Part shown: positions 1 to 33,989 of the stretch, one piece after another | Numbering within the stretch: the stretch's first letter is position 1 | How the letters are laid out: every line of letters starts with the position of its first letter | From: a virus | Lineage: Duplodnaviria; Heunggongvirae; Uroviricota; Caudoviricetes | Reading direction: 5' to 3' (one strand) | Length of the DNA stretch: 35,739 nucleotides | Virus record (IMG/VR): IMGVR_UViG_3300022758_000287 | The notes under the pieces: model-generated | What the model saw: the letters and a program-made list of their open reading frames with translations, nothing else | Told to the model about the DNA's origin: nothing | The model's database searches: none | Program-made: the position numbers and the translations under genes

Positions 1-36
1 GGATTCTGCCGTTTTTAACAATGCAGGATTAATAAG

Positions 37-328
37 ATGAAAAATGTTGTTTCTGCCGCTCTGGCCAATGCTTATTACAGGATGTGCTACAACAGACGTT
101 TACTGTTGGAAACAAACCTACAGCAGTAACACCAAGGAAACCATCACCCATCATTTCTTCGTTTCGGGAATTGGGCAGAAGAAAACTGTCGATGCAGCAA
201 AAATTTGTGGTGGTGCAGAAAATGTTGTTAAAACAGAAACCCAGCAACATTCGTAAATGGATTGCTCGGTTTTATTACTTTTAGGCATTTATACTCCGCT
301 GGAAGCGCGTGTGTATTGCTCACAATAA
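37..328 (+). pseudogene. bor: bor (serum-resistance lipoprotein) homolog, disrupted by multiple frameshifts
   Basis: Bor/BorD-like peptides (ITGCA, QQTFTVGNKPTAVTP, KETITHHFFVSGIGQKKTVDAAKICGGAENVVKTETQQ, TFVNGLLGFIT) are spread over all three plus-strand frames. Confidence 0.8.
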
Positions 329-2122: not shown

Positions 2123-3205
2123 ATGAAAAAATTAACAGTGGCAATTTCTGCTGTAGCTGCATCAGTACTGATGGCGATGTCTGCTCAGGCAGCTGAAATT
2201 TATAATAAAGACAGTAACAAGCTGGATCTATACGGGAAAGTTAATGCCAAGCACTACTTCTCCTCTAATGATGCAGATGATGGTGATACTACTTATGCCC
2301 GTCTTGGCTTCAAAGGTGAAACCCAAATCAACGATCAACTGACTGGTTTCGGTCAGTGGGAATATGAATTCAAAGGCAACCGTGCTGAATCTCAAGGTTC
2401 TTCCAAAGACAAAACCCGTCTTGCATTTGCAGGCCTGAAATTTGGTGATTACGGCTCAATCGATTACGGCCGTAACTACGGTGTAGCATACGACATCGGT
2501 GCGTGGACTGACGTTCTGCCAGAATTCGGTGGTGATACCTGGACCCAAACAGATGTGTTCATGACTGGTCGCACTACTGGTGTTGCAACTTATCGTAACA
2601 ACGACTTCTTTGGTCTGGTCGATGGCCTGAACTTTGCTGCTCAGTATCAGGGTAAAAATGACCGCACTGACGTAACTGAAGCCAATGGTGATGGTTTCGG
2701 TTTCTCCACTACTTATGAGTATGAAGGATTCGGCGTGGGTGCAACCTATGCTAAATCAGATCGCACTGACGGTCAGGTCGCCTATGGTAAGAGCAAATTC
2801 AATGCCTCCGGCAAAAATGCGGAAGTATGGGCTGCAGGCCTGAAATATGATGCGAACAATATCTATCTGGCTACCACATATTCTGAAACTCAGAATATGA
2901 CCGTTTTTGGTAATAACCATATTGCAAACAAAGCACAAAACTTTGAAGCAGTAGCACAATATCAGTTTGACTTCGGTCTGCGTCCATCTGTTGCTTACCT
3001 TCAGTCAAAAGGTAAAGACCTTGGTGTTCATGGTGACCGAGACTTAGTCAAGTATGTCGATGTCGGTGCTACTTACTACTTTAATAAAAACATGTCCACT
3101 TTTGTTGATTACAAAATCAACTTAATTGACGATAGTAAGTTTACCAAAACAGCTGGTATTGATACCGACGACATCGTCGCTGTAGGTCTGGTTTATCAGT
3201 TCTAA
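2123..3205 (+). CDS. nmpC: Outer-membrane general porin, NmpC / OmpD type (phage moron between Q and S)
   Basis: 360 aa with signal peptide [23 protein letters not shown] and C-terminal VYQF; same position and opposite orientation as nmpC in DLP12. Confidence 0.9.
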
Positions 3206-4871: not shown

Positions 4872-4911
4872 TCTGTTAATTTCAAATCACTTAACTGTGA
4901 ATAATCCATTG

Positions 4912-6122: not shown

Positions 6123-6413
6123 TCATCTTTTAACTCCATATACCGCCAATATCCGTTTCATCGTGGCACTCTGGCGACACTCCTTAAAAATCAGGTTCGT
6201 GCTCATCTTTCCTTCCCGTTCTTCCTTGGTAGCAAACCGGTAATACACCGTTCGCCAGACCTTACCTTCGATAACCAGAAGACCTGCCCGTGCCATTTTA
6301 GCCGCGGCCTGATTTATGCTGGTTACTGTTGCGCCTGTTAGCGCGGCAACGTCCGGCGCACAGAAGCTATTATGCGTCCCCAGGTAATGAATAATTGCCT
6401 CTTTGCCCGTCAT
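6123..6413 (-). CDS. ren: Ren
   Basis: 96 aa near-identical to lambda Ren. Confidence 0.9.
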   Translation of the reverse strand: MTGKEAIIHYLGTHNSFCAPDVAALTGATVTSINQAAAKMARAGLLVIEGKVWRTVYYRFATKEEREGKMSTNLIFKECRQSATMKRILAVYGVKR

Positions 6414-7111
6414 ACACTTGCTCCTTTCAGTCCTAACTTAGCTTTAATTTCTGCGATCTTCGCCAGCGCCTGAACACGATTTAGAGGTCTGCCGCCCATG
6501 ACAGGAAGTTGTTTTACTGGTTCAGGTATCGTCTCACCACGGTTAATTCGCGCTGTCATACAGGTCAGTTCATCGGCAGCCTTGCGTCGTAATTCCGCGT
6601 CAGTCAGCGCATTGGCCCGCATGTTCTGGTACAGGTTGGTAACCAGCCAGTAGTGCGCGTTCGATTTCCACGGATAAGACTCTGCATCCGGATACAGGCC
6701 TCGCTTCCGGCAATACTCGTAAACCATATCAACCAGCTCGCTGACGTTTGGCAGTCCGGCGATAACGGATGCTTCTTCCCGGCACCATGCAACAAACTGC
6801 CCGGGTGATGGCAGAAATGGTCGATTCTGCCGACGGGCTACGCGCATTCCTGCGTTAACCTGTTCCATTGTGGTGATCCCGTTTTCCCGGAAAGCCAGAA
6901 CCCACTGGCGGCGGATTTCGTTCAGTTCGTTCTGGTCACGGTTAGCCAGACTCGCCGGGAAAGTTGCCAGTAACTGGCTGAACACACCGTTGATGATCTG
7001 CGCTACCTGCTGTACCTGCGGCTTTTCGTCGTACTGTTCCGGCATGTTGTTGGCGATCCGACGCATCTGCTCACGGTCAAAATTAACCATCTGTGCGGCG
7101 ATGTTTTTCAT
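6410..7111 (-). CDS. P: Replication protein P (helicase loader)
   Basis: 233 aa near-identical to lambda P. Confidence 0.95.
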   Translation of the reverse strand: MKNIAAQMVNFDREQMRRIANNMPEQYDEKPQVQQVAQIINGVFSQLLATFPASLANRDQNELNEIRRQWVLAFRENGITTMEQVNAGMRVARRQNRPFLPSPGQFVAWCREEASVIAGLPNVSELVDMVYEYCRKRGLYPDAESYPWKSNAHYWLVTNLYQNMRANALTDAELRRKAADELTCMTARINRGETIPEPVKQLPVMGGRPLNRVQALAKIAEIKAKLGLKGASV

Positions 7112-8008
7112 AAATCCACCCCGTAAATCCAGTCAGTGTTTGTCAGGTCGAGTTTTGGTTTGCAGGCTGTCACACCTGCCTGTTGCTTGTTACGGTTGAT
7201 TTCGAGCTGGGTCCACTTGTCGCGGAGTTTGGCCGGGCTCAGCACGTTACCGGACCAGAAGTTGTCCTGGCATGCCCAGCGGAACAGTACACACATGTCG
7301 CGATGGTTACGTCCGTCACGTTCACGCATCAGGCGGATATCGTTAGCCCACCCTGCAAAATTCGGTTTTCTGGCTGATGGCGCGATGGTCTTCACCATGT
7401 CAAACATCCATTCTGCGGCGGTCAGGTCTTCTGCTGTCCCCCACTTGCTGCCGCTCTGAATTGCAGCATCCGGTTTCACCACAGAAAGGTCGTTTTCTGG
7501 CTGGTCAGAGGATTCGCCAGAATTCTCTGACGAATAATCTTTTCTTTTTTCTTTTGTAATAGTGTCTTTTGTGTCCCCCCTGTTTTGAGGGATAGCAATC
7601 CCCCAATTTGAGGGATGTTTTATCCCTCGTTTTAGGGGATTTTCCCTCGTTTTGAGGGATACACCATTCTGAGATGTTTTTATTTGGTCCAAACATGCCG
7701 CCTTGCTGCTTGATAATATTCATTCTGACGAGTTCTAACTTGGCTTCATTGCACCGTTTGACGGGTAACTTTGTAATCTCGCTAAGTTGAGAATCGGTGA
7801 TTCTGTCCATTGGTTTATTCCATCCATAGGTTTTACGCAGAATGGCAAGCAGCACTTTAAACTGTCGCTTGGTCAGATCTGCGCCTGAATAAGCCTCAAG
7901 CAGCATATTTGATAGTCTGGCGTAACCATCATCGAGATCTGCCACATTACGCTCCTGTTTGGCAAAGTTACCTCTGCAGAAGTTGAGTATTTTTGCTGTA
8001 TTTGTCAT
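7108..8008 (-). CDS. O: Replication initiator O, interrupted by a +1 frameshift inside the ori iteron region
   Basis: N-terminal 140 aa and C-terminal ~150 aa both match lambda O but lie in different frames; switch at the C6 run 7575-7580. Confidence 0.85.
7574..7660. repeat. Replication origin: four iterons (tccct-N-aggga type) inside O, with adjacent AT-rich tract
   Basis: Four ~18-19 bp repeats at 7574-7592, 7598-7616, 7622-7639, 7642-7660; AT-rich run at about 7530-7573. Confidence 0.85.
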
Positions 8009-8040: not shown

Positions 8041-8337
8041 TCAGAATTCCATCTGGATTTGTTCAGAACGCTCGGTTGCCGCCGGGCGTTTTTTATTGGT
8101 GAGTCCATCAAGCGCATACTTAAAAGCCCTGCTAATCGGACTGATGTCTGATGCCATTCCGAAAGCACACAAGACCGAAGCAATAAATCTCCAGTCCGTT
8201 CTGCTTATCTTCGATTCATGACAGCCAATCATCTTTGCCAGACCGCGCTGGGTAATAGCTGACAGATTGATAAGTAAATCTGTTTCTGCGCGATCAACGT
8301 CACGCTGTGATAGTTTGCTGTAACTTGTTCTTTCCAT
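8041..8337 (-). CDS. cII: cII transcriptional activator (chimeric: non-lambda N-terminus, lambda-like C-terminus)
   Basis: C-terminal LTNKKRPAATERSEQIQMEF identical to lambda cII; N-terminal HTH region differs. Confidence 0.8.
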   Translation of the reverse strand: MERTSYSKLSQRDVDRAETDLLINLSAITQRGLAKMIGCHESKISRTDWRFIASVLCAFGMASDISPISRAFKYALDGLTNKKRPAATERSEQIQMEF

Positions 8338-8695: not shown

Positions 8696-8812
8696 ATGCC
8701 CTCCATAGTAAACACGAATAAAAAAATACAATATGTACTTTGCGAATACAAGTAAAAATACACATTGTGCATGGATGGTTCCAGTACAGAGCGTAATAAT
8801 AAGGACATGAAA
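8696..8812. promoter_or_regulatory. cro-cI intergenic region: presumptive oR operators with divergent pR / pRM
   Basis: AT-rich divergent intergenic region with repeated TACAA / TTGTA half-site-like motifs; exact operators not resolved. Confidence 0.4.
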
Positions 8813-9467
<655 letters not shown>

Positions 9468-9506: not shown

Positions 9507-10064
9507 TTGGCAAAAATAGATGATTATCAGCCAAGCCAAGTAGAAGTTGATAAAGTACTTTATTGTAAAAAAATAGTTAACTTTTCTGGCGTTAAATGGA
9601 AACAGAAACCAAGTCGCTCTGATATGTGGCTACAAGCCCATATCATCCCCTTGGATGAGGATTGTATACCTATACAAGGGCTAAAGTTTGAACTGAAATG
9701 GAAACCAGATCAGGATTCAGAACCTGATGACCCGATTTCTTACCCTAAAATAAATATTATTGCTTTCTATCATAACAAGAGGGTTTTCGCGGTAGATACC
9801 TATCACTTTGACAAACACACGAATAGTTACAAGGTCGATCATCCGAAGTACCAAGATATCATTTACGGTGCTCACTACCATGTATACTATGAAGAAGCTG
9901 GATACTATAGTGATAGAATAGCGTTTCCAATCGAAGATGACATAAACCCAGATGACCTGGTAGGGTATTGGAATTACTTCTGTAAACATCTGAACATAAC
10001 TTACTCTGGGAGAATACCTTTACCGCTTGAAGATGAGTCGGGGCAAATGGGGTTTGGAATATGA
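9507..10064 (+). CDS. Hypothetical protein A (185 aa) in the rexA position
   Basis: AT-rich ORF directly after cI; apparent TTG start, or possibly ATG 9467 overlapping the cI stop if the A5 run 9512-9516 is 1 nt too long; no homolog recognised. Confidence 0.6.
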   Translation: MAKIDDYQPSQVEVDKVLYCKKIVNFSGVKWKQKPSRSDMWLQAHIIPLDEDCIPIQGLKFELKWKPDQDSEPDDPISYPKINIIAFYHNKRVFAVDTYHFDKHTNSYKVDHPKYQDIIYGAHYHVYYEEAGYYSDRIAFPIEDDINPDDLVGYWNYFCKHLNITYSGRIPLPLEDESGQMGFGI

Positions 10065-10813
10065 TGTGCTCAACAGTGATCTCACAACTAGGTTTCGAAT
10101 GCCATCCAATAGGCAAGACCTTGAGAATTATCAGTCCATTCACTTACTGTGATGATGGAGAGCATGTCGGTGCCTTTATCCGTGAAGTCAATGGTAGGTA
10201 TTTAGTTAGTGACAGATGCGATGCCTTAATGAATATGGAGGCAAGAGGGATCTCGCTTACCAAAAAACGACTTGATGAGATACGACAATTACTGCTTAAA
10301 GAAGGCGCAGAACTCAATGCTCGAGGAGAAATCATTGCTTGGGCAACAGAAAAGGATGTCGGTGCGATTACATCGAACATAATTAGAGCTGGTATACTCG
10401 CATCAACTTTGTCGTTAGACTGGTATCAGCCAGTTCAAGCTGAAAAGTTTGAAAGTATGGTTATTGATTATCTATATCACACAGAGCTTAGAGACGCACT
10501 TTCTCTTCGTGAAAACGTATATGGCTTGAGTGGACATCAAATTACCGTCCCTGTAACAATAAAAACCGACATACCTAAATACGTTTTTACATCAAGCGTG
10601 AAACACGGAGGAAGCTGGAATAGTGCTTACTCATTGCTTGGGAAACTAATTGATCTTAAAGCTTCAAGTGAGGAGTATAACAACAGATTTGTTGTTATAG
10701 ACAGCGAAGCAATTGGTGATCAAATGCAACAACTCTCCTTACTCTTCCATGAATCAAGCCAAGTTCTACCATTCTCCAAAAGAGAGACTTGGGTTAAGAG
10801 ACTTGCAGCATAA
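10061..10813 (+). CDS. Hypothetical protein B (250 aa) in the rexB position
   Basis: ATGA start/stop overlap with gene A; followed by an intrinsic terminator; no homolog recognised. Confidence 0.65.
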   Translation: MMCSTVISQLGFECHPIGKTLRIISPFTYCDDGEHVGAFIREVNGRYLVSDRCDALMNMEARGISLTKKRLDEIRQLLLKEGAELNARGEIIAWATEKDVGAITSNIIRAGILASTLSLDWYQPVQAEKFESMVIDYLYHTELRDALSLRENVYGLSGHQITVPVTIKTDIPKYVFTSSVKHGGSWNSAYSLLGKLIDLKASSEEYNNRFVVIDSEAIGDQMQQLSLLFHESSQVLPFSKRETWVKRLAA

Positions 10814-12350: not shown

Positions 12351-12433
12351 TACAAATCAATGGTGTGGGCAAGTACGAACTACGGCCAATGATTGCCAGA
12401 GAACTTGGTAAACAGAACAACAAAGCTGCCTGA
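12334..12433 (+). pseudogene. ral: ral (restriction alleviation) remnant: internal deletion plus frameshift
   Basis: Ral N-terminus MTTTIDTNQWCGQ and C-terminus MIARELGKQNNKAA are ~20 codons apart and in different frames. Confidence 0.6.
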
Positions 12434-20751: not shown

Positions 20752-20784
20752 ATCATAAAACAACGGGCGTGTTATACGCCCGTT
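20752..20784 (-). terminator. Intrinsic terminator 3' of the icd fragment, possibly bidirectional for int
   Basis: Perfect 9-bp stem aacgggcgt / acgcccgtt with loop gttat; U-run on the minus strand. Confidence 0.55.
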
Positions 20785-20807
20785 ACAATATTTAACACAT
20801 GTAGTGA

Positions 20808-20972
20808 TTACATATTCTTGATGATCGCATCACCAAACTCTGAACATTTCAGCAGCTTAGCGCCTTCCATCAGACGTTCGAAGTCATAGGTTACGGTCTT
20901 CGCATTGATTGCGCCTTCCATACCTTTAACAATCAGGTCTGCGGCTTCAGTCCAGCCCATATGGCGCAGCAG
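20808..20972 (-). pseudogene. icd: Phage-borne 3' fragment of isocitrate dehydrogenase (last 54 codons plus stop, 165 nt), containing the attP crossover region
   Basis: Translates to [54 protein letters not shown], matching the Icd C-terminus; homology stops abruptly at 20972. Confidence 0.85.
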
Positions 20973-21091
20973 TATATAAAAATTATGTATTCAACTCGCT
21001 GATATTTAATCATAAATATTATTTTCTTGTCTTTGTATTAGCCAAAATCAACTTTATTCAACCGTTTGATTTCATTGACGTTCGTTTTTAT

Positions 21092-21103
21092 TTTGGGGAA
21101 AGA
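21092..21103 (+). repeat. Fourth copy of the TTTTGGGGAAAG motif on the other side of the icd core
   Basis: ttttggggaaag about 120 bp beyond the icd-homology boundary. Confidence 0.4.
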
Positions 21104-21431
21104 TTTTCTCTACCATTTATATCAAAATTACAAGTCTACATTTTATTAACATCTCAATACATGTGTGGCCTTGCAAGCCATTGCGAGGCCTTATGTGTCT
21201 CAGTTTTGTCCCGCCTTGTATTACGACTTGCATAGCCAATGAAGATAAACGTGACGACAAACAAAGCAGCTGTCTTCTTTTCTTTCACACTTTCCCCACT
21301 CAGCAGCATGCATACCTTCTACTATAACTGTAGTGAATGTCTATTATGAGCGAACTGCGGACATCGTGGAGACAACATGCTGCTGGGTGCGGATATCCCA
21401 TGGCACGTCATATCGCTCGCCGTATTACTTG

Positions 21432-22190
21432 TTATTTTTTTGAAACGAGAAGTTGATACAATTCCTTCAGGGATAAGGCTAATAACTCATTCTTCCTGAT
21501 GAGATCTTTATCAGCGTCTATACCCTCTGCGCATGATTCATTTAAATAGTTCAGTGTTTCCTGATCATCATCCAAGCATTCATAGCTGCCTGAATAAAAT
21601 TCATCGCAACTTGCTTTGTTATTTTTGTCAATGTAACCAATGCATTGAATCACGCCTTTAACAACTTTAGCAGCAGAAAAAACAAAGTAACTGCAGTCAT
21701 TTATATAGCGTTCAATATCAAAAATCATATAAAAATAGTGCATAGAGTGTTTTTCAATTTCAAACTCACTTGAAATCATAGCTATTTCACATTCAAGGTC
21801 TTTCAGACCATCTAACATTATGGAAAGTTTACATTGTTTTTCTTGCACAGTTTCATACTTAAATGACTCTCTCCCCTTTGCCCTGACATTTATTCTTTCT
21901 TCAATTGCATAAATATAAGCAGGATATACACGCGACCACACTTGGTTTATTTTTAGGATTAACCGGCCTCTTTTCAGCCTTTCTTTTGTAGCTATAAATT
22001 CTGCATATAGCGCAGCATCCTCTTCGCACCATACATCAACTTTTCGTTTATAACCCAACTTTAATTCTTTCCCTACGCATTCAGGAAACAAAGGATCAAA
22101 GTCCTTTAAGTATTCAAACTCACTTAGATAGAATCCTGTCTCATAACGATTAAATAATTTCCTAAACTCTTTCCCACTTAAGGTTTTCAT
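21432..22190 (-). CDS. Hypothetical protein (252 aa), AT-rich orphan gene in the b region
   Basis: Long intact ORF, visibly AT-rich, between attP and the sit operon; no homolog recognised. Confidence 0.6.
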   Translation of the reverse strand: MKTLSGKEFRKLFNRYETGFYLSEFEYLKDFDPLFPECVGKELKLGYKRKVDVWCEEDAALYAEFIATKERLKRGRLILKINQVWSRVYPAYIYAIEERINVRAKGRESFKYETVQEKQCKLSIMLDGLKDLECEIAMISSEFEIEKHSMHYFYMIFDIERYINDCSYFVFSAAKVVKGVIQCIGYIDKNNKASCDEFYSGSYECLDDDQETLNYLNESCAEGIDADKDLIRKNELLALSLKELYQLLVSKK

Positions 22191-22793
22191 TGTATCAATC
22201 ACTCTGTTTTCATAAAAGCAAAGTCAACAAGATAAAACAATAAAAACTCTTACACAACCAGCTGATGTTTTTAAAATAGAGGATAATATAAGACAAGCAT
22301 AACCTCGTTCACTTCAATGCTACTCCTATCGTTCTTTTGCGTCACAGAGCGCCTGCCGGACAACTGCATCATAGACCAAACGGAACTGCTTCCGTCGATT
22401 AATCAGATGGCAGCGCATAAACACGCTCAACAACCCGTTTGACTGCTTCAATTTTAAGCTCTTCGGAATAACGCTTACCGTGTAAGTCTCCCTGCAAAAC
22501 GAGCTATCAACTTTTAAGGAGTCTCTGGCCCCCCTGCTTCCGCTCCTGGCACACAGCAGCCCTAGAGACAGTGGAGTAAAGTCATGGAGGCTCGGTGGGG
22601 AGAGGTGCAAATCCTCCCATACAAAAAATACGAAAATCAGTAACGGCTAGAAATCATTCAATACATGCACTCTCGAAATTGCATCAGCCAACCGCAAAAC
22701 GTTATTTCAAAGCCTACTAGCTGCCTTACTTTTTTCCTCAATAACGCGTCGCCAGCCGGAAACAACCTAATCCCTGTTTTGGGCCTCAAAACC

Positions 22794-22812
22794 GCTAATG
22801 ATAATCATTTTC
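22794..22812 (+). promoter_or_regulatory. Fur box upstream of sitA
   Basis: gctaatgataatcattttc matches the Fur consensus gataatgataatcattatc at 17 of 19 positions. Confidence 0.7.
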
Positions 22813-22835
22813 ATTTTGTATAGGTTGTGCTATAA

Positions 22836-22855
22836 AACATAGCCGTTGCTATGTT
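22836..22855 (+). promoter_or_regulatory. MntR box upstream of sitA
   Basis: aacatagccgttgctatgtt, a perfect inverted repeat of the MntR-box type. Confidence 0.65.
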
Positions 22856-22911
22856 TGTTCTAATTTTGCTCACTATAGGTACTAAATTATGCACTCGATA
22901 AAAAAGTAACC

Positions 22912-23802
22912 ATGCTCTTGGGGGGCCTCGCACTCACCTGCTCGATCGCATTTCAGGCAAGTGCAACTGAAAAATTCAAGGTCATTACAACATTTACCAT
23001 CATCGCGGATATGGCCAAAAACGTGGCGGGAGATGCTGCAGAAGTCTCATCCATAACCAAGCCTGGTGCAGAAATTCATGAGTATCAGCCTACCCCTGGC
23101 GATATTAAACGTGCGCAGGGGGCACAACTGATTCTCGCCAATGGTATGAATCTGGAATTGTGGTTCCAACGCTTTTACCAGCATCTCAATGGGGTTCCAG
23201 AAGTAATTGTCTCTTCGGGTGTGACGCCTGTAGGGATCACCGAAGGACCCTATGAGGGCAAACCTAACCCCCATGCATGGATGTCGCCAGATAATGCTCT
23301 GATTTACGTCGATAATATTCGTGATGCGTTGATAAAATACGATCCGGCAAATGCACAAACCTACCAACGCAATGCCGATACTTATAAAGCCAAGATTACC
23401 CAAACCCTTGCCCCCCTGCGTAAGCAGATTACGGAACTCCCTGAGAATCAGCGATGGATGGTCACCAGTGAAGGGGCTTTTTCTTATCTCGCACGCGATT
23501 TGGGGCTAAAAGAGCTTTATCTGTGGCCGATTAATGCCGATCAACAAGGAACACCGCAGCAGGTACGTAAGGTTGTTGATATAGTTAAGAAAAATCATAT
23601 CCCGGCAGTCTTTAGCGAGAGTACGATTTCCGATAAACCAGCGCGTCAGGTTGCGCGTGAAACCGGCGCACACTACGGCGGTGTGCTCTATGTCGATTCC
23701 CTGAGCACAGAAAACGGCCCGGTACCGACGTATATCGACCTTCTTAAGGTTACTACCAGTACGCTGGTACAGGGAATTAAAGCTGGGAAAAGGGAGAAAT
23801 AA
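22912..23802 (+). CDS. sitA: SitA, periplasmic Mn/Fe-binding protein of an ABC transporter
   Basis: 296 aa with signal peptide; first gene of a four-gene ABC operon; an out-of-frame ATG at 22889 suggests the true start may be 8 codons upstream. Confidence 0.85.
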
Positions 23803-24629
23803 TGATGCAATCTGCAGGCATTGTCGTTAATGATGTTACTGTCACCTGGCGTAACGGGCACACAGCACTGCGCGATGCATCCTTCACAGTACCAAGTGGA
23901 TCTATTGCCGCTCTGGTTGGGGTAAACGGTTCCGGAAAATCGACGTTGTTTAAAGCGATTATGGGATTTGTGCGTCTGACCAGCGGAAAGATATCTGTTC
24001 TGGGTATTCCCACGCGACAGGCGTTACAGAAAAACCTGGTTGCCTACGTCCCTCAGTCAGAAGATGTTGACTGGTCATTTCCTGTACTGGTGGAAGATGT
24101 GGTGATGATGGGCCGCTATGGGCATATGGGTATGTTGCGTATCGCCAAAAAGAGGGATCGTCAAATTGTCACCGATGCGCTGGAACGTGTCGATATGGTG
24201 AATTTTCGCCATCGACAAATCGGCGAGCTTTCCGGTGGACAAAAGAAACGCGTCTTTCTGGCGAGAGCGATTGCACAGCAGGGTGATGTGATCCTGCTGG
24301 ATGAACCTTTTACTGGCGTTGATGTGAAAACCGAAGCCAAAATCATCAGCCTGTTGAGGGAGTTACGCGCGGAAGGCAAAACGATGCTTGTCTCAACACA
24401 CAATCTCGGATCCGTCACGACATTTTGCGATTATACGGTCATGGTCAAAGGCACCGTCCTGGCAAGCGGGCCGACAGACACCACTTTTACAGCCGAGAAC
24501 CTAGAGCTGGCTTTTAGCGGCGTACTGCGCCATGTCACACTTAACGGCTCGGAAGAAAGCATTATTACTGACGATGAACGCCCTTTTGTGGCTCATCGAC
24601 CGTCAGCGGTGCAGAGGGAAGAAAGATGA
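23802..24629 (+). CDS. sitB: SitB, ABC transporter ATP-binding protein
   Basis: Walker [10 protein letters not shown], signature LSGGQ, Walker B ILLDEP. Confidence 0.9.
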
Positions 24630-25483
24630 ACGTGCTACTGGAACCCTTCAGCTATGAATATATGCTCAATGCGATGTGGGTCTCGGCGATGGTCGGCGGT
24701 CTCTGCGCTTTCCTGTCATGCTATCTGATGCTAAAAGGCTGGTCGCTGATTGGCGATGCGTTGTCGCACTCTATTGTCCCGGGTGTTGCGGGGGCATATA
24801 TGCTGGGGCTTCCGTTTTCTCTGGGAGCCTTCTTTTCCGGCGGACTGGCTGCGGGCAGCATGCTGTTTCTTAACCAACGCACCCGCTTAAAAGAAGATGC
24901 CATCATCGGTCTGATCTTCTCGTCCTTTTTTGGCCTGGGGCTGTTTATGGTGTCATTGAACCCGACATCTGTGAACATTCAGACCATCGTCCTGGGCAAT
25001 ATTCTGGCAATCGATCCGGCGGATATCCTGCAACTCACTATCATTGGCATTCTCTCGATCATCGTGCTTTTTTTCAAATGGAAAGATCTTATGGTGACCT
25101 TTTTCGACGAGAATCACGCCCGTGCTATTGGATTGCATCCGGGCAGATTAAAACTCATCTTCTTCACCCTGCTGTCGGTTTCGACCGTTGCGGCGCTGCA
25201 AACGGTTGGTGCCTTTCTGGTGATCTGTCTGGTGGTGACTCCCGGTGCAACAGCATGGTTGTTAACCGATCGTTTTCCCCGCCTGCTCATGATTGCTGTA
25301 ACTATTGGCAGTGTAACTAGTTTCCTCGGCGCGTGGGTCAGTTACTTTCTGGACGGCGCGACAGGTGGAATCATCGTGGTGGCGCAGACACTGCTGTTTC
25401 TTTTAGCATTTGTCTTTGCGCCCACCCATGGGCTTTTGGCAAATCGTCGGCGTGCGCATAAGGCGCTGGAGGATCGCTCATGA
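24626..25483 (+). CDS. sitC: SitC, ABC transporter permease
   Basis: 285 aa polytopic membrane protein, overlapping stop/start with sitB. Confidence 0.85.
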
Positions 25484-26337
25484 TGGCATTATTACTGGAG
25501 CCACTGCAGTTCACCTTTATGAGTCACGCACTGCTGATTTCACTGGTAGTTTCCATACCCTGTGCGCTGCTGTCGGTCTTTCTGGTCCTGAAAGGTTGGG
25601 CACTGATGGGTGACGCGATGAGTCATGCGGTTTTTCCTGGAATCGTGCTTGCCTGGATTCTGGGGTTACCTTTGGCTACAGGGGCATTCGTCGCCGGAGT
25701 ATTCTGCGCGGTGGCGACGGGATACCTGAAAGACAACAGCCGAATCAAGCAAGATACAGTGATGGGGATTGTTTTTTCTGGCATGTTTGCCGCAGGTCTG
25801 ATCTTGTATATTGCAGTCAAACCAGACGTACATCTTGACCATATTCTTTTCGGCGACATGCTCGGGATAACCATCGGCGATATAATCCAGACGATGATTA
25901 TTGCCGGGCTGGTTACACTTGTTATTAGCGTAAAATGGCGGGATTTTTTGCTGTTCAGCTTTGATTATCAACAGGCGCAGGTAAGCGGTTTGCATACGAG
26001 ATGGCTGCATTATGGGCTGCTGTGCATGGTCTCTCTGACCATTGTGGCGACGCTGAAAGCGGTAGGTATCATTCTCTCCATTTCTCTGCTCATTGCGCCT
26101 GGCGCCATTGCGGTACTCCTGACACAACGCTTTCATATTGCGCTCCTACTGGCGACTGGCATATCGGTAATAGTGTCAATGACTGGTGTCTGGTTGTCCT
26201 TTTTTATCGACAGCGCACCAGCTCCGACGATTGTCGTCTTATTCGCGGTTTTGTTCATCATGACGTTTGCCGTTACCAGCATCAACGCACGCAAAAAGGG
26301 AAACTCCCATACACAGGATCTGTTATCACCCAATTAG
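25480..26337 (+). CDS. sitD: SitD, ABC transporter permease
   Basis: 285 aa polytopic membrane protein paralogous to SitC. Confidence 0.85.
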   Translation: MMALLLEPLQFTFMSHALLISLVVSIPCALLSVFLVLKGWALMGDAMSHAVFPGIVLAWILGLPLATGAFVAGVFCAVATGYLKDNSRIKQDTVMGIVFSGMFAAGLILYIAVKPDVHLDHILFGDMLGITIGDIIQTMIIAGLVTLVISVKWRDFLLFSFDYQQAQVSGLHTRWLHYGLLCMVSLTIVATLKAVGIILSISLLIAPGAIAVLLTQRFHIALLLATGISVIVSMTGVWLSFFIDSAPAPTIVVLFAVLFIMTFAVTSINARKKGNSHTQDLLSPN

Positions 26338-26428
26338 CACAACATCCGAGGACAGCAACACCCGATACTTTTTCCTGGCTTCCAGCAACGGGGTTTCTTC
26401 CTCCGTTGCATATACAGCTCACCTTTTT

Positions 26429-26722
26429 TCACCCACGATTAACCAACAGCCAGACCAGCAGACACGCCACCACCGGCACAGCAAAATCCATCAGGCTTGC
26501 CACATCCCAAGCTCGCGGATCAAAACCGCCCCACCACGGCATATTCATTCGCTTGCCATGCCCGAACATTTCAATCCAGCGATATTCTGCCTGGGTATGT
26601 TCACGCGCAATGAAGAACGTACAACCGGCTATCGCTCCGTAAGCCCAGTTTCCGGTAAAAAGACCAACCAGTATCTGCGCAGCCACAGCACAAAGCGCAT
26701 GAAGTAAGGGGCTTATATCCAT
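26429..26722 (-). CDS. Small inner-membrane protein (97 aa) at the end of the tail-fibre operon
   Basis: Strong aaggagga RBS; two or three hydrophobic helices; no homolog recognised. Confidence 0.6.
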   Translation of the reverse strand: MDISPLLHALCAVAAQILVGLFTGNWAYGAIAGCTFFIAREHTQAEYRWIEMFGHGKRMNMPWWGGFDPRAWDVASLMDFAVPVVACLLVWLLVNRG

Positions 26723-26734
26723 TATTTCCTCCTT

Positions 26735-27013
26735 TCAGCTCCATTCCCGAAGCGGTGTTTCCAGCTCCACGACATAATCAGAGAATACAGAAACATCAAA
26801 CAAGTCATCAAGAATGCGAATGTTGACAAAATAACCGTCATTCCGGACACAGACAGGTTCTCCCTCTTCTGTTACCCCTGTTTCTGTGTAGGTGAAACCA
26901 ATTTCATCGACTAACAGTTTATTCTGGAGGTCTTCATCCTCCTCCCAGTCAAGAGATGACAGGAAGGCCTTAAACTGCAGTTTGTCATGAAACTTCAAAG
27001 TTAAATCTTTCAT
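26735..27013 (-). CDS. Hypothetical acidic protein (92 aa) translationally coupled to the tail-fibre gene
   Basis: ATGA overlap with the tail-fibre stop; position suggests a fibre assembly or accessory role. Confidence 0.5.
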   Translation of the reverse strand: MKDLTLKFHDKLQFKAFLSSLDWEEDEDLQNKLLVDEIGFTYTETGVTEEGEPVCVRNDGYFVNIRILDDLFDVSVFSDYVVELETPLREWS

Positions 27014-29070
27014 ACGACCTCTTTTAATTGCCTGTCATTTAATTCTTTATGCCATATGCGGAAATTGCGAATATGGCCAAACAGATGTCGTTCTCCAGTA
27101 TTCGTCTGCCCTCCAAATCGGATATTTTTATCAGCGGTCACACCATTATATTCACAATAAACTTCATTAACCGCTTTACCATTTGTCACCACATGAAAGT
27201 GACCATCAGCTTTTGCAATACATCCAAATGTGGTTTTCTCTGCAAATACATCTGTCGCTGCGCTATTAACATACAAGCCTGAAGGGTTTGACAGACTCAT
27301 ATATAACTTACCACTACCTCTGTTGATTGCTGCAATTGCTGATTGCCCGGTATTGGCTGCTGCTATATCCCACACGCGGGGTGCGGCGTTTGGTGCAATA
27401 TCCCAGTTTTTATGAATCTCAAGTAAAAAAGTAAATGGTAACTTATAAAGATTATTTCTGGTGGGGATACTAACCAAATCACTGGCTCTTGTCGTTGCGC
27501 TGCCTCCTGAAATAATAAATGATGATACACACGGCCCATTCTCTACTTGTGGGGTGGCAAGATAAATATAGTCACCAGATACTGTTGCCCCACCCCGCTC
27601 AGGAGAATACTGTATCTGAGAGCCTATTTTTAACTCACCATCAATTGCCTGAATCGTTGCCTCTGCAAAAATCCAGCCTGTGGTCTTATCCTTCCTGACT
27701 CGTGCCGTAATTCTGCCGGCAGCCCCACCTGTCATATTAATTTCAAGCGTTTGCGTATCAATGTACGCATCGCCAAGAAAAGTTGTTGCACTACCATCAT
27801 ACTTATCAAACCGTATACGTAACCTTACCTGTCGTTCTGTTTTAAAACGGCATGAGGTTGTCACGTACTTGTTATCGCCTGAGACATCAACTGACTTTGT
27901 TGCAGCAATTGATGCCATATTAATAGCCGAAGTTTGCCCAACCAGAGAATCGTTGCAGACAAACTTTCCATAAGTAAAACCAAAACTATCTGTCCCGGTT
28001 TCGGGCACATCCATGTTTGATGACTTCCCCCAGCTGGCTGGACTTTCCGAATTGAGCATGTAGTTCGTTCTTTGTCCCTCAATAAGCAGGCCATCACACT
28101 CAAATCGCGGCTCATTAATTTCCGCCGTTTTCAGTTCGCCAGATTTGTTGATATATGTTGCCGTTGATGCGCGACTGAAATTAACCTGTTTATCACTGGC
28201 GACCTGAACCACATCGTCACCAATAGCTATTTTTTTATAGCCCGGAGAAAAACCCGCAATCATATCCAGTGAATCGTTAAACGGTATCCACACATCAGGC
28301 AGCGGCGGCACTATATTCGCATAGGGCTCTGCAGTCACTTCCGCTGCGACTTCTGCGCGGTCTGCCGCCTTTTCAGCCCGTGTCGCTGCCGACAGAGCCT
28401 CATCCTTTTTCTGCCCGGCCTTTGTTGCGTCTGCTGCGGCCTCCCGCGCTTTTGTGGTGGCGACTCCGGCATTTTCAGCGGCTGACTCTGCATTACGGCG
28501 GGAAGCCTCTTCACTGTCTGCGGAGGCTTCTTCTGACGCACGGGCATTTGTCTCTGAACGTTCTGCCGCTGTTGCTGCGTTTTGTGCGGCTGTTTTTGAA
28601 GAAGCTGCCGCTTTCGCGCTGTTACCTGCATTCGTCTCTGATGTTTTCGCCGCATTCCTGGACGATGCCGCTGCTGTTTCTGATTTCTTTGCTGCCGCTG
28701 CGCTCTGAGAGGCGGCTTCAGCGTTGCGTGCCACCTCTTCCACCATCTTTTCAAAACGATACAGTGCCTCCGGACGAACATCATCTTCTGTTGCAGCGCC
28801 CAGAAAATCATTCAATGTCCCCGGCTTAGAATCCTCATACACGGTGATGGCCCCGGCATGTGAAGGCGGAAAACCTTCAACCAGCAGGATAACGCTGTAC
28901 TGGCCATACTCGACATCCATGCTGTAACGTCCGGCTTCATCCGGATTTTCTGAGGCCACCGTGTTCACCACAACCGTGGTGCTGTTACGTTTTGCTTTGA
29001 GCTGAATGGTGCAGTTCTGTATCGGTTTTCCTGCACCGTCTTTCAGCACGCCTGAAATCTGTACTGCCAT
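27010..29070 (-). CDS. Tail fibre protein (lambdoid side-tail-fibre type with Ala-rich central region)
   Basis: N-terminus MAVQISGVLKDGAGKPIQNCTIQLKA... typical of lambdoid tail fibres; long Ala/Ser-rich segment; ggag RBS. Confidence 0.8.
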   Translation of the reverse strand: MAVQISGVLKDGAGKPIQNCTIQLKAKRNSTTVVVNTVASENPDEAGRYSMDVEYGQYSVILLVEGFPPSHAGAITVYEDSKPGTLNDFLGAATEDDVRPEALYRFEKMVEEVARNAEAASQSAAAAKKSETAAASSRNAAKTSETNAGNSAKAAASSKTAAQNAATAAERSETNARASEEASADSEEASRRNAESAAENAGVATTKAREAAADATKAGQKKDEALSAATRAEKAADRAEVAAEVTAEPYANIVPPLPDVWIPFNDSLDMIAGFSPGYKKIAIGDDVVQVASDKQVNFSRASTATYINKSGELKTAEINEPRFECDGLLIEGQRTNYMLNSESPASWGKSSNMDVPETGTDSFGFTYGKFVCNDSLVGQTSAINMASIAATKSVDVSGDNKYVTTSCRFKTERQVRLRIRFDKYDGSATTFLGDAYIDTQTLEINMTGGAAGRITARVRKDKTTGWIFAEATIQAIDGELKIGSQIQYSPERGGATVSGDYIYLATPQVENGPCVSSFIISGGSATTRASDLVSIPTRNNLYKLPFTFLLEIHKNWDIAPNAAPRVWDIAAANTGQSAIAAINRGSGKLYMSLSNPSGLYVNSAATDVFAEKTTFGCIAKADGHFHVVTNGKAVNEVYCEYNGVTADKNIRFGGQTNTGERHLFGHIRNFRIWHKELNDRQLKEVV

Positions 29071-29085
29071 ATTCACTCCACAAAT

Positions 29086-29110
29086 AAAAAAGGCGCCATT
29101 TCTGGCGCCC
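29086..29110 (-). terminator. Intrinsic terminator between J and the tail-fibre gene
   Basis: Stem ggcgcc / ggcgcc with loop, followed on the minus strand by a T6 run. Confidence 0.55.
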
Positions 29111-29128
29111 GTATCTGGGTTATAAAAT

Positions 29129-32100
29129 TCAACTGATACTGATACCGGCTGTAGATTTCTTCATCACAACAACAAGAAGGTCGCTGATACTGGTCGTTGG
29201 CGTCCAGTTATTAGCACCATATGAAGAAACATTGAAAGTCAGGGTGACATGGCCGTGTCCGGCAGGCATATCAATGACTGATGAAAATACCCTGCTGACA
29301 TCCGTCGCGGGTTGCTGAAAGATTTCCTGTCCGTTCTTCAGTACCTGCAGCTTACAGGTTGAATACCAGTATGACTGTTGGTTGTTGCTGTTGAAGTTTT
29401 CATGCTTACCCCCACGAAACAGAACGGGGGGGACTACTATCTGACGGTCAAAAGCCTGGTCATCGTACACAGTGACCGTTATTGTACCGCTGGCATAACT
29501 GCCATTTCTCGGAAAGGCTTTTCCCACCGCTTTGACAATATCACCTTCAATCTGGTTAGCTGACAGTTTTCCCAGAATCCGACAGTTCTGATTAATCGTG
29601 ACGTTGTTGAGCGTCCCGGAGTTCGCGTTCACGTTACCGCTGATATCCGCATTTTTCGCAGAAAGTCGACCATCAGGTGTCAGTGAAAACGTTGGGGGAT
29701 TGCCACCGCTGGTAATGGTGGGAGCCGTCAGATATTTCAGGAACACTTCGTTCATGAATATCTGATCGCCCTGCCCAACAAACATCGGCTTTGTGTTGCC
29801 ATTCGCAGGATTAATCATCGCAATCCTGTCCGCCGCCAGCAGCACCTGACTCTGCATACCGTCAGGAGTATTCTCAACACCGGCACCAATACCCGCGATA
29901 TAAAGGCGTCCGTCCTGCATCTGCTGCAGCTTCACAGCCCACATGCTGTTCAGGTTATTATTTGTATCAACCTGAACCTTCTGTATCTGCTGGATCGCTG
30001 CACTCTGGTCTTCCAGTTTCTTATTGACGGTCTGCGTGATTTCATTGCTGACACCCGTAATGGACGTCCTGATTTCAGCCAGGTCAGGCGCAAGCTGACC
30101 GTTATCAATCTGCGTCCACAACTCCTGAGCCAGATGGGTTTTCCCTATCTCTCCTTTGAAAAAATTCAGATAGCCGGATGCATCATCACTCGGCTGGCCA
30201 ACAGCCTCCACAAATGCCGATTTGCCAACGGTGTTCACACTGCGGATGTAAAAATAATAATCATGGCCCGGTTTGATATTGATACTGGCGGCTATCCAGT
30301 ACAGCGCCGTGCCAAGATAGCGTGCTGTGGTTTCAACCTGCCTGATATCCGCAATCCGCTTTTCCGAGAACCAGAACTCAAACTGTACCGTCGGATCATA
30401 AACCGCAAGATGCGGCGTGGCGGTTATCTGAAAATACCCCGGTGTCAGCTCAATCTGCGACGGCGCTGCCGGTGCGGCAATCCGGAACGATACCGATGCC
30501 GGATCGCCCTGCTGCCCCCACGCATTTACCGCCCGGACTGTCAGCCTGTAGTTCCCCAGCGCCAGTTGCCTGAAGCGGTATGTGGTTTCCGTCGTCCGGG
30601 CCGTGCTGGCCAGCCGCTCACTGCCGTCATCCGCTGCCACGGTCAGGCGAAGCATAAAGCTCACCCCCTTCACCACCTTCGGCGTGTCCCAGCGCGCCAG
30701 CACCTGATATTCCCCGCTGTCTGCGGTGACTTCGGCAGTCAGGTGCTGCACCGCTGGCGGCGTGACACCATTCACCGTGCCGCTCTGGTCGCCGTCAAAG
30801 TGCGCCCCGTTATCCACGATGGCCTCTTTTTCCGGTACATGCTGCACGGCAGTGATGGCATACGTGCCGTCATCGTTCTCACGGATACTCACACAGCGGA
30901 ACAGGCGCTGGCGCAACGTCGGCAACTTCAGCCCCCACACGCTGTATTCTGCAACGCCGTCAGGAACACGGCTCACTTTTACCTTCACGCCGTCGGTGAC
31001 GGACTGGACCTCCACGCTGACCGGATTCCCCTGTCCGTCAGCCAGGCTTATCAGCGTGGTGCCGGAGGATGGCAGCGTGATTTCACGGTCGAGCGTCAGT
31101 GTCCGCGTCTGGTTGTTCACCGCCAGCACGCGCCCGCCGATGCTGATCCCCGCATAGTCATCATCACAGATTTCAATGACATCGCCCGGTACATGGCGAA
31201 GCCCTTCTGCACCCACGCTGAAGTCCACGGTCTGCGTTTCCAGCAGTTCCGTTTTAATCAGCCACAGCCCGGCGCGGTGTGCCTGCCCCCGGCTGGTACA
31301 GCCAAAAGCATCCATCTTCGTGACGTTACGACCGTAACGGGCAATGGCCTGCGTATCCTCCACAAGCTCTGTCGCCGTCTCCCAGCCGTTGTCCGGGTCA
31401 ATCCAGTTCACCTCAACGGCATTATGGCGGTCTTTCAGGGCGCTGAAGCTGTAGCGGAACGGCGCGCCATCATCCGGCATCACCACATTACTGCGGTTAT
31501 AGGTCCACACCTTATCCGACGGTCGGTCCTGCACGAACGTCAGCGTCTGCCCGTTCCATACCGGCATACAGCGCATCGCCGAGCAGAAATCACTGAGCAC
31601 ATCCCACGCCTTGCGCTGTGTGGTCAGGTACGCATTACAGGTGATGCGCGGCTCCGTGCCGCCAAAGCCGTCCGGCACTGACTGGTCGCAGTACTGGCCG
31701 ATGACATACAGCGCCCATTTGTCCACATCCGCCGCACCAAGACGTTTCCCCATGCCGTAGCGCGGGTGGGTCAGCATATCCCACAGACACCAGGCCATGT
31801 TGTTGCTGTATGCTGGTTTTAACGTTCCGTCCCAGATACCGCTGTATTGCCGCGTCTGCGGGTTATAATTCGACGGCACCTGCAGAATACGCCCGCGCAG
31901 ATGATAATTACGGCTCACCTGCTGGCTGCCGAACTGCTCCGAATCCACCTGCACGCCGACCAGTGCCGTGTTCGGGTAGCACTGTTTCACATCGATGATT
32001 TCGGTGTATGACGACCAGAGCGTTTTGTTCTGCAGCTGGTCTGTGGTGCTGTCCGGTGTCATCCTGCGCATCCGGATATTGAACGGGCGCGGAGGCAGGT

Positions 32101-32611
32101 TATCCACCACCACCGAGGCCAGATACTGCGAGGTGGTTTTGCCCTTAATGGTGATGTCTTTTTCCGTCACCCAGCCACCGTTACGCTGTATCTGAACCAG
32201 CAGGCGAACTTCCGACGGATTCCTGTCTCCCTTTGAGGTGGTTTCCACCAGTGCCTGCACGCCGAAAGTAAAACGCAGACGGTCAATGTTTGCCGACGTG
32301 ATGGTCCGGGTGATCGGCGTGTCATATTTCACTTCTGTACCGAGCACCGTCTCGGAGCCGGAGGATTCAAATCCCTCCGGCGGTGTCTGCTCCTGCTCAC
32401 CGGCCCGGAACACCACCGTGACGCCGAATATATTGGTATTCCCCTCACTGTCCAGCACCGGCGTACTGTTCAGCAGCACGCTTTTTAATCCATCCACCGG
32501 ACCTTCAACCGGCCCTTCGCTGATGGCGTCTATCACGCTCAGCATCTGGGATGATTTCAGGTTGTCCTTCGCTTCGCGCGGGGTATGCCCCTTACTGCTG
32601 CCTTTACCCAT
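29129..32611 (-). CDS. J: Host specificity / central tail fibre protein J
   Basis: 1160 aa, N-terminal ~1000 aa near-identical to lambda J; C-terminal receptor-binding region divergent. Confidence 0.95.
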
Positions 32612-32671
32612 TCGTCATGCTCCATAAACGATAAAACCGCCCGGAGGCGGTTTCACATAAAACATTTTGCA

Positions 32672-33343
32672 TCAGCGACCAATCACCACAACCTGACCAC
32701 CATCCCCTTCGTCTGCCGTGCTGATCTCCTGAGAAACCACGCGTGACCCCACGCGCATTTCACCGTACAGAACCGGCAGAACATTGCCCTGGGCAACCAT
32801 GTTATCCAGTGAGGAGAAATAGGTGTTCTGTTTGCCGTTATCCGTTGTCTGTGTACGGGGAGTTCTGGCTTTCGGTGCCAGCATCTGCGCCACACCACCG
32901 AGCACCATACTGGCACCGAGAGAAAACAGGATGCCGGTCATACCACCGGCCCCAATGGCTGCCCCCCATGCTGCAAGGGTGGCTCCGGCAGTAAAGAATG
33001 ATCCGGCAATGGCGGCTGCTCCCAGGACAATCTGGAATACGCCACCTGACTTGGCCCCGGCGACTCTGGGAACAATATGAATCACAGCGCCATCAGGCAG
33101 AGTCTCATGTAACTGCGCCGTTAACCCGGACGTGCTGACGTCCCGCCCGGCAATCCGTACCTGATACCAGCCGTCGCTCAGTTTCTGACGAAACGCCGGG
33201 AGCTGTGTGGCCAGTGCGCGGATGGCTTCAGCCCCCGTTTTCACACGAAGGTCGATGCGGCGGCCAAATCGTTGCAAATCCCCGTAAAGGCAGATGCGCG
33301 CCATGCCCGGTGACGCCAGAGGGAGTGTGTGCGTCGCTGCCAT
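32672..33343 (-). CDS. I: Tail assembly protein I
   Basis: 223 aa matching lambda I. Confidence 0.9.
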   Translation of the reverse strand: MAATHTLPLASPGMARICLYGDLQRFGRRIDLRVKTGAEAIRALATQLPAFRQKLSDGWYQVRIAGRDVSTSGLTAQLHETLPDGAVIHIVPRVAGAKSGGVFQIVLGAAAIAGSFFTAGATLAAWGAAIGAGGMTGILFSLGASMVLGGVAQMLAPKARTPRTQTTDNGKQNTYFSSLDNMVAQGNVLPVLYGEMRVGSRVVSQEISTADEGDGGQVVVIGR

Positions 33344-33984: not shown

Positions 33985-33989
33985 GGGAT

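What the first reader, a model, noticed from the sequence alone, without database searches (positions are those of the whole stretch)
7575..7580. Replication initiator O is frameshifted inside ori iteron 4
The minus-strand reading gives ...KTSLKLGDCYPSKQGG and then leaves the O frame, while the O C-terminus (DTKDTITKEKRKDYSSENSGESSDQPEN...) continues one frame over. The switch is at a run of six C (six G on the coding strand) inside the fourth iteron. Removing one base restores a continuous 299-aa O. As given, the phage would have no initiator and an altered iteron.
Basis: partly seen in the sequence, partly recalled or inferred. Interest (0 to 1): 0.5.

Follow-up and report, generated by a model that had tools for sequence, protein, structure and literature searches.

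The report
One extra G splits phage O gene
The lambda-type replication initiator gene O in this phage contig is broken by one extra G at the edge of origin repeat 4, but the contig has about twenty similar one-base length errors, so the break is most likely a sequencing artefact and is ordinary either way.

Summary
Window 7575-7580 is CCCCCC (six G on the coding minus strand). Lambda, CFT073, ev207 and every close relative have five. O is split into a 167-aa product (144 native residues plus a 23-aa tail) and an out-of-frame C-terminal part. Deleting one G gives a 299-aa O identical to the CFT073/D8 protein.

The biological reading (a phage without an initiator) is probably wrong. The window is a whole 35,739-bp contig that differs from near-identical prophages by 21 one-base indel events, a 97-bp deletion and essentially no substitutions outside mosaic patches. 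These indels also break cI, cro, tail gene L, sitA, ninX, ral and iss. The contig carries a true attP junction, meaning excised or tandem phage DNA.

The six-G allele is absent from 5,426 complete E. coli genomes and from the plasmid, phage, IMG/VR, GTDB-representative and JGI metagenome collections.

One caveat: the same sixth G is in otherwise clean assemblies of one SRA series (SRR24638402, SRR24638406, SRR24638415 and others). A rare real null allele therefore exists somewhere, but nothing links the window to that lineage.

Estimates: artefact about 0.65, genuine inactivation about 0.3. Low interest either way.

The parts
7575..7580 (-). Run of six G (coding strand). All relatives have five. 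The extra base causes the frame break in O.
7108..8008 (-). Lambda-type replication initiator gene O, 901 nt as given (900 nt in relatives). Deleting one G gives 299 aa identical to the CFT073/D8 O protein.
7505..8008 (-). 5' ORF as given: 167 aa, made of 144 native O residues (including the complete Pfam Phage_rep_O domain, residues 22-115) plus a 23-aa out-of-frame tail.
7108..7574 (-). O C-terminal coding part (residues 145-299 of intact O, the P-interacting half by established knowledge). It is out of frame with the start codon as given and has no Pfam match of its own.
7643..7660 (-). ori iteron 1 (lambda 39034-39051 register)
7623..7640 (-). ori iteron 2
7599..7616 (-). ori iteron 3
7576..7593 (-). 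ori iteron 4: ATCCCTCAAAACAGGGGG, the same 18 bp as in lambda. The sixth G (7575) follows it.
7533..7574 (-). A+T-rich unwinding tract of ori (approximately lambda 39119-39160), displaced by +1 bp from iteron 4. Sequence identical to lambda in the aligned stretch.
   Evidence: coordinates of ori-lambda from PMC3349717
6410..7111 (-). Replication gene P (233 aa), intact and identical to D8. Its start overlaps the end of O.
20962..20971 (.). attP crossover interval. The contig follows the int-side icd 3' copy up to 20971 and the sit-side arm from 20962 at the latest. This bears on whether the phage was excised or replicating.

Best explanation
The locus is an ordinary lambda-type O gene with ori-lambda embedded in it: four 18-bp iterons and an A+T-rich tract, followed by P. 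The sixth G is most likely a homopolymer-length miscall in an error-prone contig. On this reading the real phage has five G and an intact 299-aa O, and replicates as lambda does. The following mechanism is inferred from established lambda biology and was not tested here. O dimers bind the iterons through the N-terminal domain and form the O-some. The adjacent A+T-rich tract unwinds. The C-terminal half recruits P-DnaB. Shown here: the extra base, its exact position, restoration of the ORF by removing it, the contig-wide excess of one-base indels, and the absence of six G from the large collections. Inferred: that this particular base is an error.
For: (1) Against strain D8, window 1-20971 has 18 one-base indel events, a 97-bp deletion, and only 2 substitutions, both inside one garbled patch at 12369-12386. 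With J-identical relatives, 20972-32989 differs by a single A7->A6 indel, and there are two more indels at 34198 and 34201. Nineteen of the 21 indel events change the length of a base run. (2) The indels break iss, ninX, cro, cI, ral, sitA (5' end) and tail gene L. About 40 other genes keep the reference length, and those in the first 21 kb are identical to D8 at protein level. Losing cI and cro together with no substitutions is not how prophages decay. (3) The broken cro and L products exist only on this contig. The same A6->A7 in cI recurs in an unrelated prophage of a 2010 draft (ADUX01000354.1), which shows that such miscalls recur independently. (4) The six-G allele has no hit in 5,426 complete E. 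coli genomes or the plasmid collection with a seed-specific 40-mer. It has none among 131 phage records or about 1,316 genomes with full 70-bp coverage. It has none in IMG/VR, GTDB-representative genomes or JGI metagenomes. Five G is found in at least 120 IMG/VR contigs, and the intact 299-aa protein is on at least 1,000 contigs. (5) Excluding O, 4 of about 169 runs of 5 or more bases in the window are miscalled, about 2.4% per run. That exceeds the apparent frequency of a real six-G lineage: 0 of 223 complete-genome records whose O is at least 99% identical. (6) The contig carries a true attP junction, as expected for an excised phage that is probably replication-competent.
Against: The exact 167-aa truncated product and the six-G run are also on Logan assemblies of SRR24638415, SRR24638406 and SRR24638402 (the last contig is seen in 6 samples). 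These lack all of the window's other indels in the shared region. They differ from D8 only by the sixth G and by an A->G in the Q start codon, and all 45 other runs of 5 or more bases in the 8.9-kb contig agree with D8. So a six-G allele very probably exists in nature. That the window has an error at exactly that run and in that direction is a coincidence of a few percent. No reads were available, so the artefact is inferred, not shown.
Confidence: 0.65

Rival explanations
1. The sixth G is real: a rare slippage mutation in the G5 run has inactivated O in this phage lineage. The phage would make only an origin-binding N-terminal fragment (144 native residues plus 23 others) that cannot recruit P-DnaB. 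It could not start theta replication on its own, and would persist as a prophage or depend on an O protein of the same specificity supplied by another lambdoid prophage.
For: An identical six-G allele is present in otherwise clean assemblies of at least 8 runs of one SRA series on the same prophage backbone. None of 45 other long homopolymers in that 8.9-kb contig deviates from D8. Of the window's informative gene-breaking indels, this is the only one found on the same phage in independent data. Split or partial O products of other lengths are common in E. coli assemblies, so O pseudogenes are not unusual.
Against: Nothing links the window to that lineage. The window lacks its Q start-codon change, and none of the 19 contigs with the window's exact K variant comes from the series. 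The contig's own error rate at long runs (about 2.4%) is higher than the allele's apparent frequency: 0 of 223 close complete-genome records, against at least 1,000 contigs carrying the intact protein. The rest of the phage shows no shared decay. The attP form is easier to explain with a replicating phage.
Confidence: 0.3
2. The six-G run is a recoding site. Full-length O would be made by +1 ribosomal slippage of tRNA-Gly on G-GGG-GGA (re-pairing GGG to GGG and then reading GAC), or by transcriptional slippage, so that the initiator dose is set by frameshift efficiency.
For: The sequence permits codon-anticodon re-pairing after a +1 shift, and the product would be exactly wild-type O (derived).
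Against: A programmed site should be conserved, but every relative has five G and a continuous ORF. No stimulatory element is known here, and a run of six G is short for RNA-polymerase slippage (established knowledge). Leak without a stimulator is expected to be well under 1% (own knowledge, not tested).
Confidence: 0.02

Closest known systems
Bacteriophage lambda gene O with ori-lambda (J02459 38686-39585; ori 39034-39160)
   Same: 97.8% nucleotide identity over the whole gene. The repaired protein differs from lambda O at 3 residues. The same four 18-bp iterons are present with the same spacing, the AT-rich tract is the same, and P follows with an overlapping start.
   Different: One extra G after iteron 4 breaks the reading frame at codon 145 and adds 1 bp between iteron 4 and the AT-rich tract.
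icd-integrated lambdoid prophage of phylogroup-B2-type E. coli (CFT073, D8, ATCC 25922, Nissle 1917, UTI89 and others) carrying sitABCD, iss and an OmpC-like porin gene
   Same: Window 1-20971 and 20757-35739 match its two ends at 99.6-99.9% identity. Gene content and order are the same.
   Different: The window has the excised (attP) order, whereas these genomes have the integrated order. In all of them O has five G and is annotated as an intact 'replication protein'.
Homopolymer-length errors of pyrosequencing-era or low-coverage long-read draft assemblies
   Same: A large excess of +/-1 run-length changes over substitutions, clustered at the contig end and in a few patches. The same A6->A7 in cI is seen in an unrelated 2010 draft contig.
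   Different: The O indel, unlike the others, is also present in clean assemblies of another sample series. The platform of the window's source is unknown.
Lambda O-null mutants (amber) and the plasmid 'inhibition phenotype' caused by oop plus iterons 3-4 (PMC3349717)
   Same: If real, the allele would be a replication-initiation null that still keeps oop, all four iterons and the O origin-binding domain. Those are the cis elements shown to inhibit rep-lambda phages when carried on plasmids.
   Different: No phenotype is known for this allele. The inhibition phenotype was shown for multicopy plasmids, not for a single-copy prophage.

Membership tests
Lambda-type replication initiator O / ori-lambda | N-terminal origin-binding domain (Pfam PF04492 Phage_rep_O) | tested here: met
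   The 167-aa product matches PF04492 over residues 22-115, full profile length, E = 1.8e-36.
Lambda-type replication initiator O / ori-lambda | Four 18-bp iterons followed by an A+T-rich tract inside the coding sequence | tested here: met
   Alignment to lambda's annotated iterons. Four direct repeats with start-to-start spacing 20/24/23.
Lambda-type replication initiator O / ori-lambda | Continuous ORF of about 299 aa joining the origin-binding half to the P-interacting C-terminal half | tested here: not met
   As given, the frame breaks after residue 144. It is met only after deleting one G.
Lambda-type replication initiator O / ori-lambda | Downstream helicase-loader gene P with a start overlapping the end of O | tested here: met
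   P at 6410-7111(-), 233 aa, identical to D8.
Sequencing or assembly homopolymer artefact | The change is +/-1 in a homopolymer, and the same contig shows many such changes with few substitutions | tested here: met
   21 indel events against 2 substitutions outside mosaic and att regions.
Sequencing or assembly homopolymer artefact | Absent from independent sequences of the same element | tested here: inconclusive
   Absent from all complete genomes, plasmids, phage records, IMG/VR, GTDB representatives and JGI metagenomes. Present in one SRA series.
Sequencing or assembly homopolymer artefact | Read-level support is mixed or low quality at the run | not testable with these tools
   No reads or quality values are available.
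Genuine prophage pseudogene (decay) | The same lesion appears in independent, clean assemblies of the same lineage | tested here: inconclusive
   The lesion is in clean Logan contigs. No marker ties the window to that lineage: the Q start codon differs, and the window's K variant is not found in the series.
Genuine prophage pseudogene (decay) | Accompanying signs of decay (substitutions, deletions, IS elements) shared with relatives | tested here: not met
   Apart from the contig-private indels, the genes match intact relatives: identical at protein level in the first 21 kb and same length elsewhere.
Programmed frameshift / recoding site | Frameshift site conserved among homologues | tested here: not met
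   All relatives have five G and a single ORF.
Programmed frameshift / recoding site | Slippery sequence plus a stimulatory element giving substantial frameshifting | not tested
   G-GGG-GGA allows +1 re-pairing (sequence). No stimulator was sought or is known, and efficiency is not measurable here.

The most novel reading that the evidence does not exclude
The six-G allele is real, and the O-null phage is not simply dead. The stable N-terminal origin-binding fragment, together with intact oop and iterons, would act as a replication-level exclusion device against superinfecting rep-lambda phages, a single-copy natural counterpart of the plasmid 'inhibition phenotype'. The element itself would be mobilised using O supplied by a co-resident lambdoid prophage, which could explain finding it in attP form.
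Probability: 0.03. Interest if true: 0.45.

Novelty: not a real feature. Interest (0 to 1): 0.1.

Why it matters
As the most likely case (an artefact), its value is practical. This contig should not be used to infer defective genes, because O, cI, cro, L, sitA, ninX, ral and iss all appear broken for the same technical reason.

If the sixth G is real, it would be one more inactivating slippage mutation in a prophage replication gene. That is a known kind of event with local consequences only: the prophage would be unable to replicate after induction unless helped in trans.

One point has modest interest. A clean six-G allele does exist in one SRA series, so a natural O-null version of a sitABCD/iss-carrying prophage could be studied if someone needed one.

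Tried and rejected
- Exact-pattern scans for the six-G 32-mer in IMG/VR, GTDB-representative genomes and JGI metagenomes found nothing. The window's own contig is evidently not in those searchable copies, so its source could not be identified.
- A full-text search for the SRA run numbers found no paper, so the platform and organism of the six-G series remain unknown.
- Lineage markers: the window's exact J protein is too common to be informative, and only 24 of 39 index blocks were read. The rarer K variant occurs on 19 contigs, none from the SRA series. No link was established, but none is excluded, because Logan contigs may break inside tail genes.
- One search showed one E. coli record at >=99% identity for the 70-bp query. 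A seed-specific 40-mer test showed that no complete genome has six G, so that record was a partial match.
- The fragment look-ups for cI C-terminal (87 aa), sitA (296 aa) and ninX (100 aa) were uninformative, because the same products arise from alternative start calls or contig truncation in many genomes.
- A misassembled join at the duplicated icd 3' end was considered for the int-sit junction. It is largely rejected because the switch falls within about 10 bp relative to relatives whose two copies differ. It is not fully excluded for a host whose copies share 67 bp, as in D8.
- Programmed frameshifting was rejected for lack of conservation.
- Structure prediction and remote-homology searches were not run, because the protein is 99% identical to lambda O and they could not bear on the question.

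Full report
**1. The observation**

Window 7575-7580 is CCCCCC on the + strand, which is GGGGGG on the minus (coding) strand. ORF 7505-8008(-) encodes 167 aa ending ...KTSLKLGDCYPSKQGG followed by HKRHYYKRKKKRLFVREFWRIL*. The rest of O (DTKDTITKEKRKDYSSENSGESSDQPEN...) lies in another frame within ORF 7108-7692(-).

I aligned the stretch with lambda (J02459), E. coli CFT073 and phage ev207. The window has exactly one additional G in the run that closes lambda's annotated iteron 4. Deleting one G yields a 299-aa protein identical to the CFT073/D8 'replication protein', with three residue differences from lambda O (C11G, K17G, C282S).

One refinement applies. The 18 bp that lambda annotates as iteron 4 (ATCCCTCAAAACAGGGGG, window 7593-7576) are unchanged. 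The four iterons keep lambda's start-to-start spacing of 20/24/23. The extra base can equally be described as +1 bp between iteron 4 and the A+T-rich tract.

**2. What the locus is**

This is a standard lambda-type O/ori/P module.
- The 5' product retains the complete Pfam Phage_rep_O domain (residues 22-115, E = 1.8e-36).
- P (6410-7111, minus strand) and cII (8041-8337, minus strand) are intact and identical to D8.
- The literature held here places ori-lambda at 39034-39160 inside O: four 18-bp iterons joined to a 38-bp AT-rich sequence (PMC3349717).
- Iteron 4 is the most weakly bound iteron. The iterons nearest the AT-rich tract are the ones required for unwinding and in vitro replication (PMC7466680).
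- That the N-terminal half of O binds ori and the C-terminal half recruits P-DnaB is established lambda biology. It rests on my own knowledge and was not tested here.

**3. Context**

The exact 167-aa product is on record from a JGI/IMG contig whose length is 35,739 bp. The window is therefore a whole contig.

Window 1-20971 (iss, lysis genes, OmpC-like porin, Q, nin region, P, O, cII, cro, cI... bet, exo, xis, int) matches one end of an icd-integrated lambdoid prophage of CFT073/D8/ATCC 25922-type E. coli. Window 20757-35739 (a 256-aa hypothetical gene, sitABCD, tail fibre, J, I, K, L, M, part of the tape-measure gene) matches the other end of the same prophage.

The two parts are joined at the duplicated icd 3' segment. 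The window follows the int-side copy without a mismatch up to 20971, and the sit-side arm from 20962 at the latest, so the switch lies within about 10 bp (TGGCGCAGCA). That is what an Int-generated attP looks like. The contig therefore represents excised, virion-derived or tandem phage DNA rather than a single integrated prophage. All relatives retrieved through the J protein are in the integrated arrangement.

**4. Error profile of the contig**

Against D8, window 1-20971 shows:
- 18 one-base indel events;
- a 97-bp deletion;
- two substitutions, both inside a garbled patch at 12369-12386.

With relatives that share the window's J protein, 20972-32989 (12 kb) differs by a single event, A7->A6 near the start of sitA. 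Two further insertions lie at 34198 and 34201. A short mosaic patch at 32990-33523 carries ordinary substitutions.

Nineteen of the 21 indel events lengthen or shorten a base run. They cluster at the contig end (nine within 30-279), at 1666-1808 and at 12373-12386. Isolated events lie at 4883, 7575, 8540, 9155, 22899 and 34198/34201.

They break iss, ninX, O, cro, cI, ral, sitA (5' end) and L. About 40 other genes keep the reference length, and those in the first 21 kb are identical to D8 at protein level. Many indels, no substitutions, and cI and cro both broken in a phage that is otherwise identical to intact relatives: this pattern indicates base-calling or consensus error, not decay.

**5. 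Is the sixth G one of these errors?**

Evidence for error:
- The allele is absent from all 5,426 complete E. coli genomes and from the plasmid collection. I used a 40-mer that can only seed on six G.
- It is absent from about 1,316 genomes and 131 phage records that cover a 70-bp query in full.
- It is absent from IMG/VR, GTDB-representative genomes and JGI metagenomes.

Evidence against error: the exact 167-aa product and the six-G run occur on Logan assemblies of SRR24638415 (5.5 kb), SRR24638406 (2.1 kb) and SRR24638402 (8.9 kb, the same contig in six samples).
- These contigs do not share the window's indels at 4883, 8540 or 9155.
- They differ from D8 only by the sixth G and by an A->G in the Q start codon, which the window lacks.
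- They read 45 other runs of 5 or more bases as D8 does.
A genuine six-G allele therefore very probably exists in that series.

Control look-ups put this in perspective:
- The broken cro and L products occur only on the window's contig.
- The broken cI product also occurs on ADUX01000354.1 (GCA_000178695.1). That is a different prophage (16 substitutions per kb) in a 2010 draft, carrying the same A6->A7.
Identical homopolymer miscalls therefore do recur independently, so recurrence alone is not proof.

Weighing the two:
- Excluding O, 4 of about 169 runs of 5 or more bases in the window are miscalled, about 2.4% per run.
- The six-G lineage is 0 of 223 complete-genome records whose O is at least 99% identical, and a handful of contigs against at least 1,000 for the intact protein.
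- No marker ties the window to the SRA lineage. The Q start codon is discordant, and the window's K variant is on 19 contigs, none from the series.
- The attP form also fits a replication-competent phage better.

My estimates are about 0.65 for artefact, 0.3 for a real allele, and the remainder for other readings.

**6. Consequences if the base is real**

The phage would make an origin-binding fragment of 144 native residues plus 23 unrelated ones, with no P-interacting half. It could therefore not assemble the preprimosome at its own ori, a classic O-null phenotype. In cis, the iterons are intact but the AT-rich tract is displaced by 1 bp, with unknown effect.

A +1 slip of tRNA-Gly on G-GGG-GGA would regenerate wild-type O exactly. 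However, the site is not conserved in any relative and no stimulatory element is known, so programmed recoding is very unlikely.

A more speculative reading is that the retained oop, iterons and DNA-binding fragment exclude rep-lambda phages, by analogy with the plasmid inhibition phenotype (PMC3349717). I give this about 3%.

**7. Comparison, novelty and verdict**

The closest known system is lambda O/ori itself (97.8% nucleotide identity). All defining features are met except the continuous ORF, which is restored by removing one base.

Whether artefact or real null allele, nothing here departs from known biology. I file it as most likely not a real feature and give it low interest. The practical message is that this contig's apparent pseudogenes should not be interpreted without reads.

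The decisive tests are pile-ups of the source reads at 7575-7580 and inspection of the SRR246384xx reads and metadata.

Noticed in passing
window 9149-9155 (cI-like repressor, 8771-9467 +): A7 where relatives have A6. This splits the 231-aa LexA-family repressor into 132-aa and 87-aa pieces. The same A6->A7 is found in an unrelated prophage of the draft contig ADUX01000354.1, but not in the SRA-series contigs. It is very likely a recurrent homopolymer miscall.
   Followed up: yes
window 30-279, 1666-1808, 4883, 8540, 12369-12386, 22899-22905, 34198/34201: Twenty further one-base indel events and a 97-bp deletion at 12372, relative to near-identical prophages. They break iss, ninX, cro, ral, sitA (5' end) and tail gene L. 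Nine lie within the first 280 bases of the contig.
   Followed up: yes
window 20757-20971 (crossover 20962-20971): The contig joins int to the sitABCD/tail-fibre arm through a phage-borne copy of the icd 3' end, giving a true attP arrangement. In all complete genomes examined the same phage is integrated in icd, with these arms about 50 kb apart. The source DNA therefore contained excised, packaged or tandem phage genomes.
   Followed up: partly
window 22912-26337 (sitABCD), 2123-3205 (OmpC-like porin), 1-330 (iss): The phage carries three cargo loci. The iron/manganese transporter sitABCD lies between attP and the tail-fibre genes. An OmpC-like porin gene lies between the lysis genes and Q. 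The serum-survival lipoprotein gene iss lies downstream of the lysis genes.
   Followed up: no
window 9507-10813 (+), downstream of the cI-like repressor in the position of lambda rexA/rexB: A two-gene cassette (185 aa, and 250 aa with DUF1828) matches the PADLOC candidate defence system PDC-M24 (subunit A E = 4.8e-4, subunit B E = 4.7e-10). It may be a prophage-encoded defence pair replacing rexAB.
   Followed up: partly
L130 position 8405 / L128 position 5011 (equivalent to window 3777): In the SRA series that carries the six-G O allele, the start codon of the Q antiterminator (quuD-like) is GTG instead of ATG. This is the only other difference from strain D8 in 8.8 kb. That lineage thus carries changes in two lytic-cycle genes.
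   Followed up: no
window 32990-33523 (tail genes I/K) and 29530-32614 (J): Clusters of substitutions against some relatives but not others. These are typical mosaic recombination patches in the tail genes. The window's exact K variant is on only 19 contigs in the protein-position index.
   Followed up: partly
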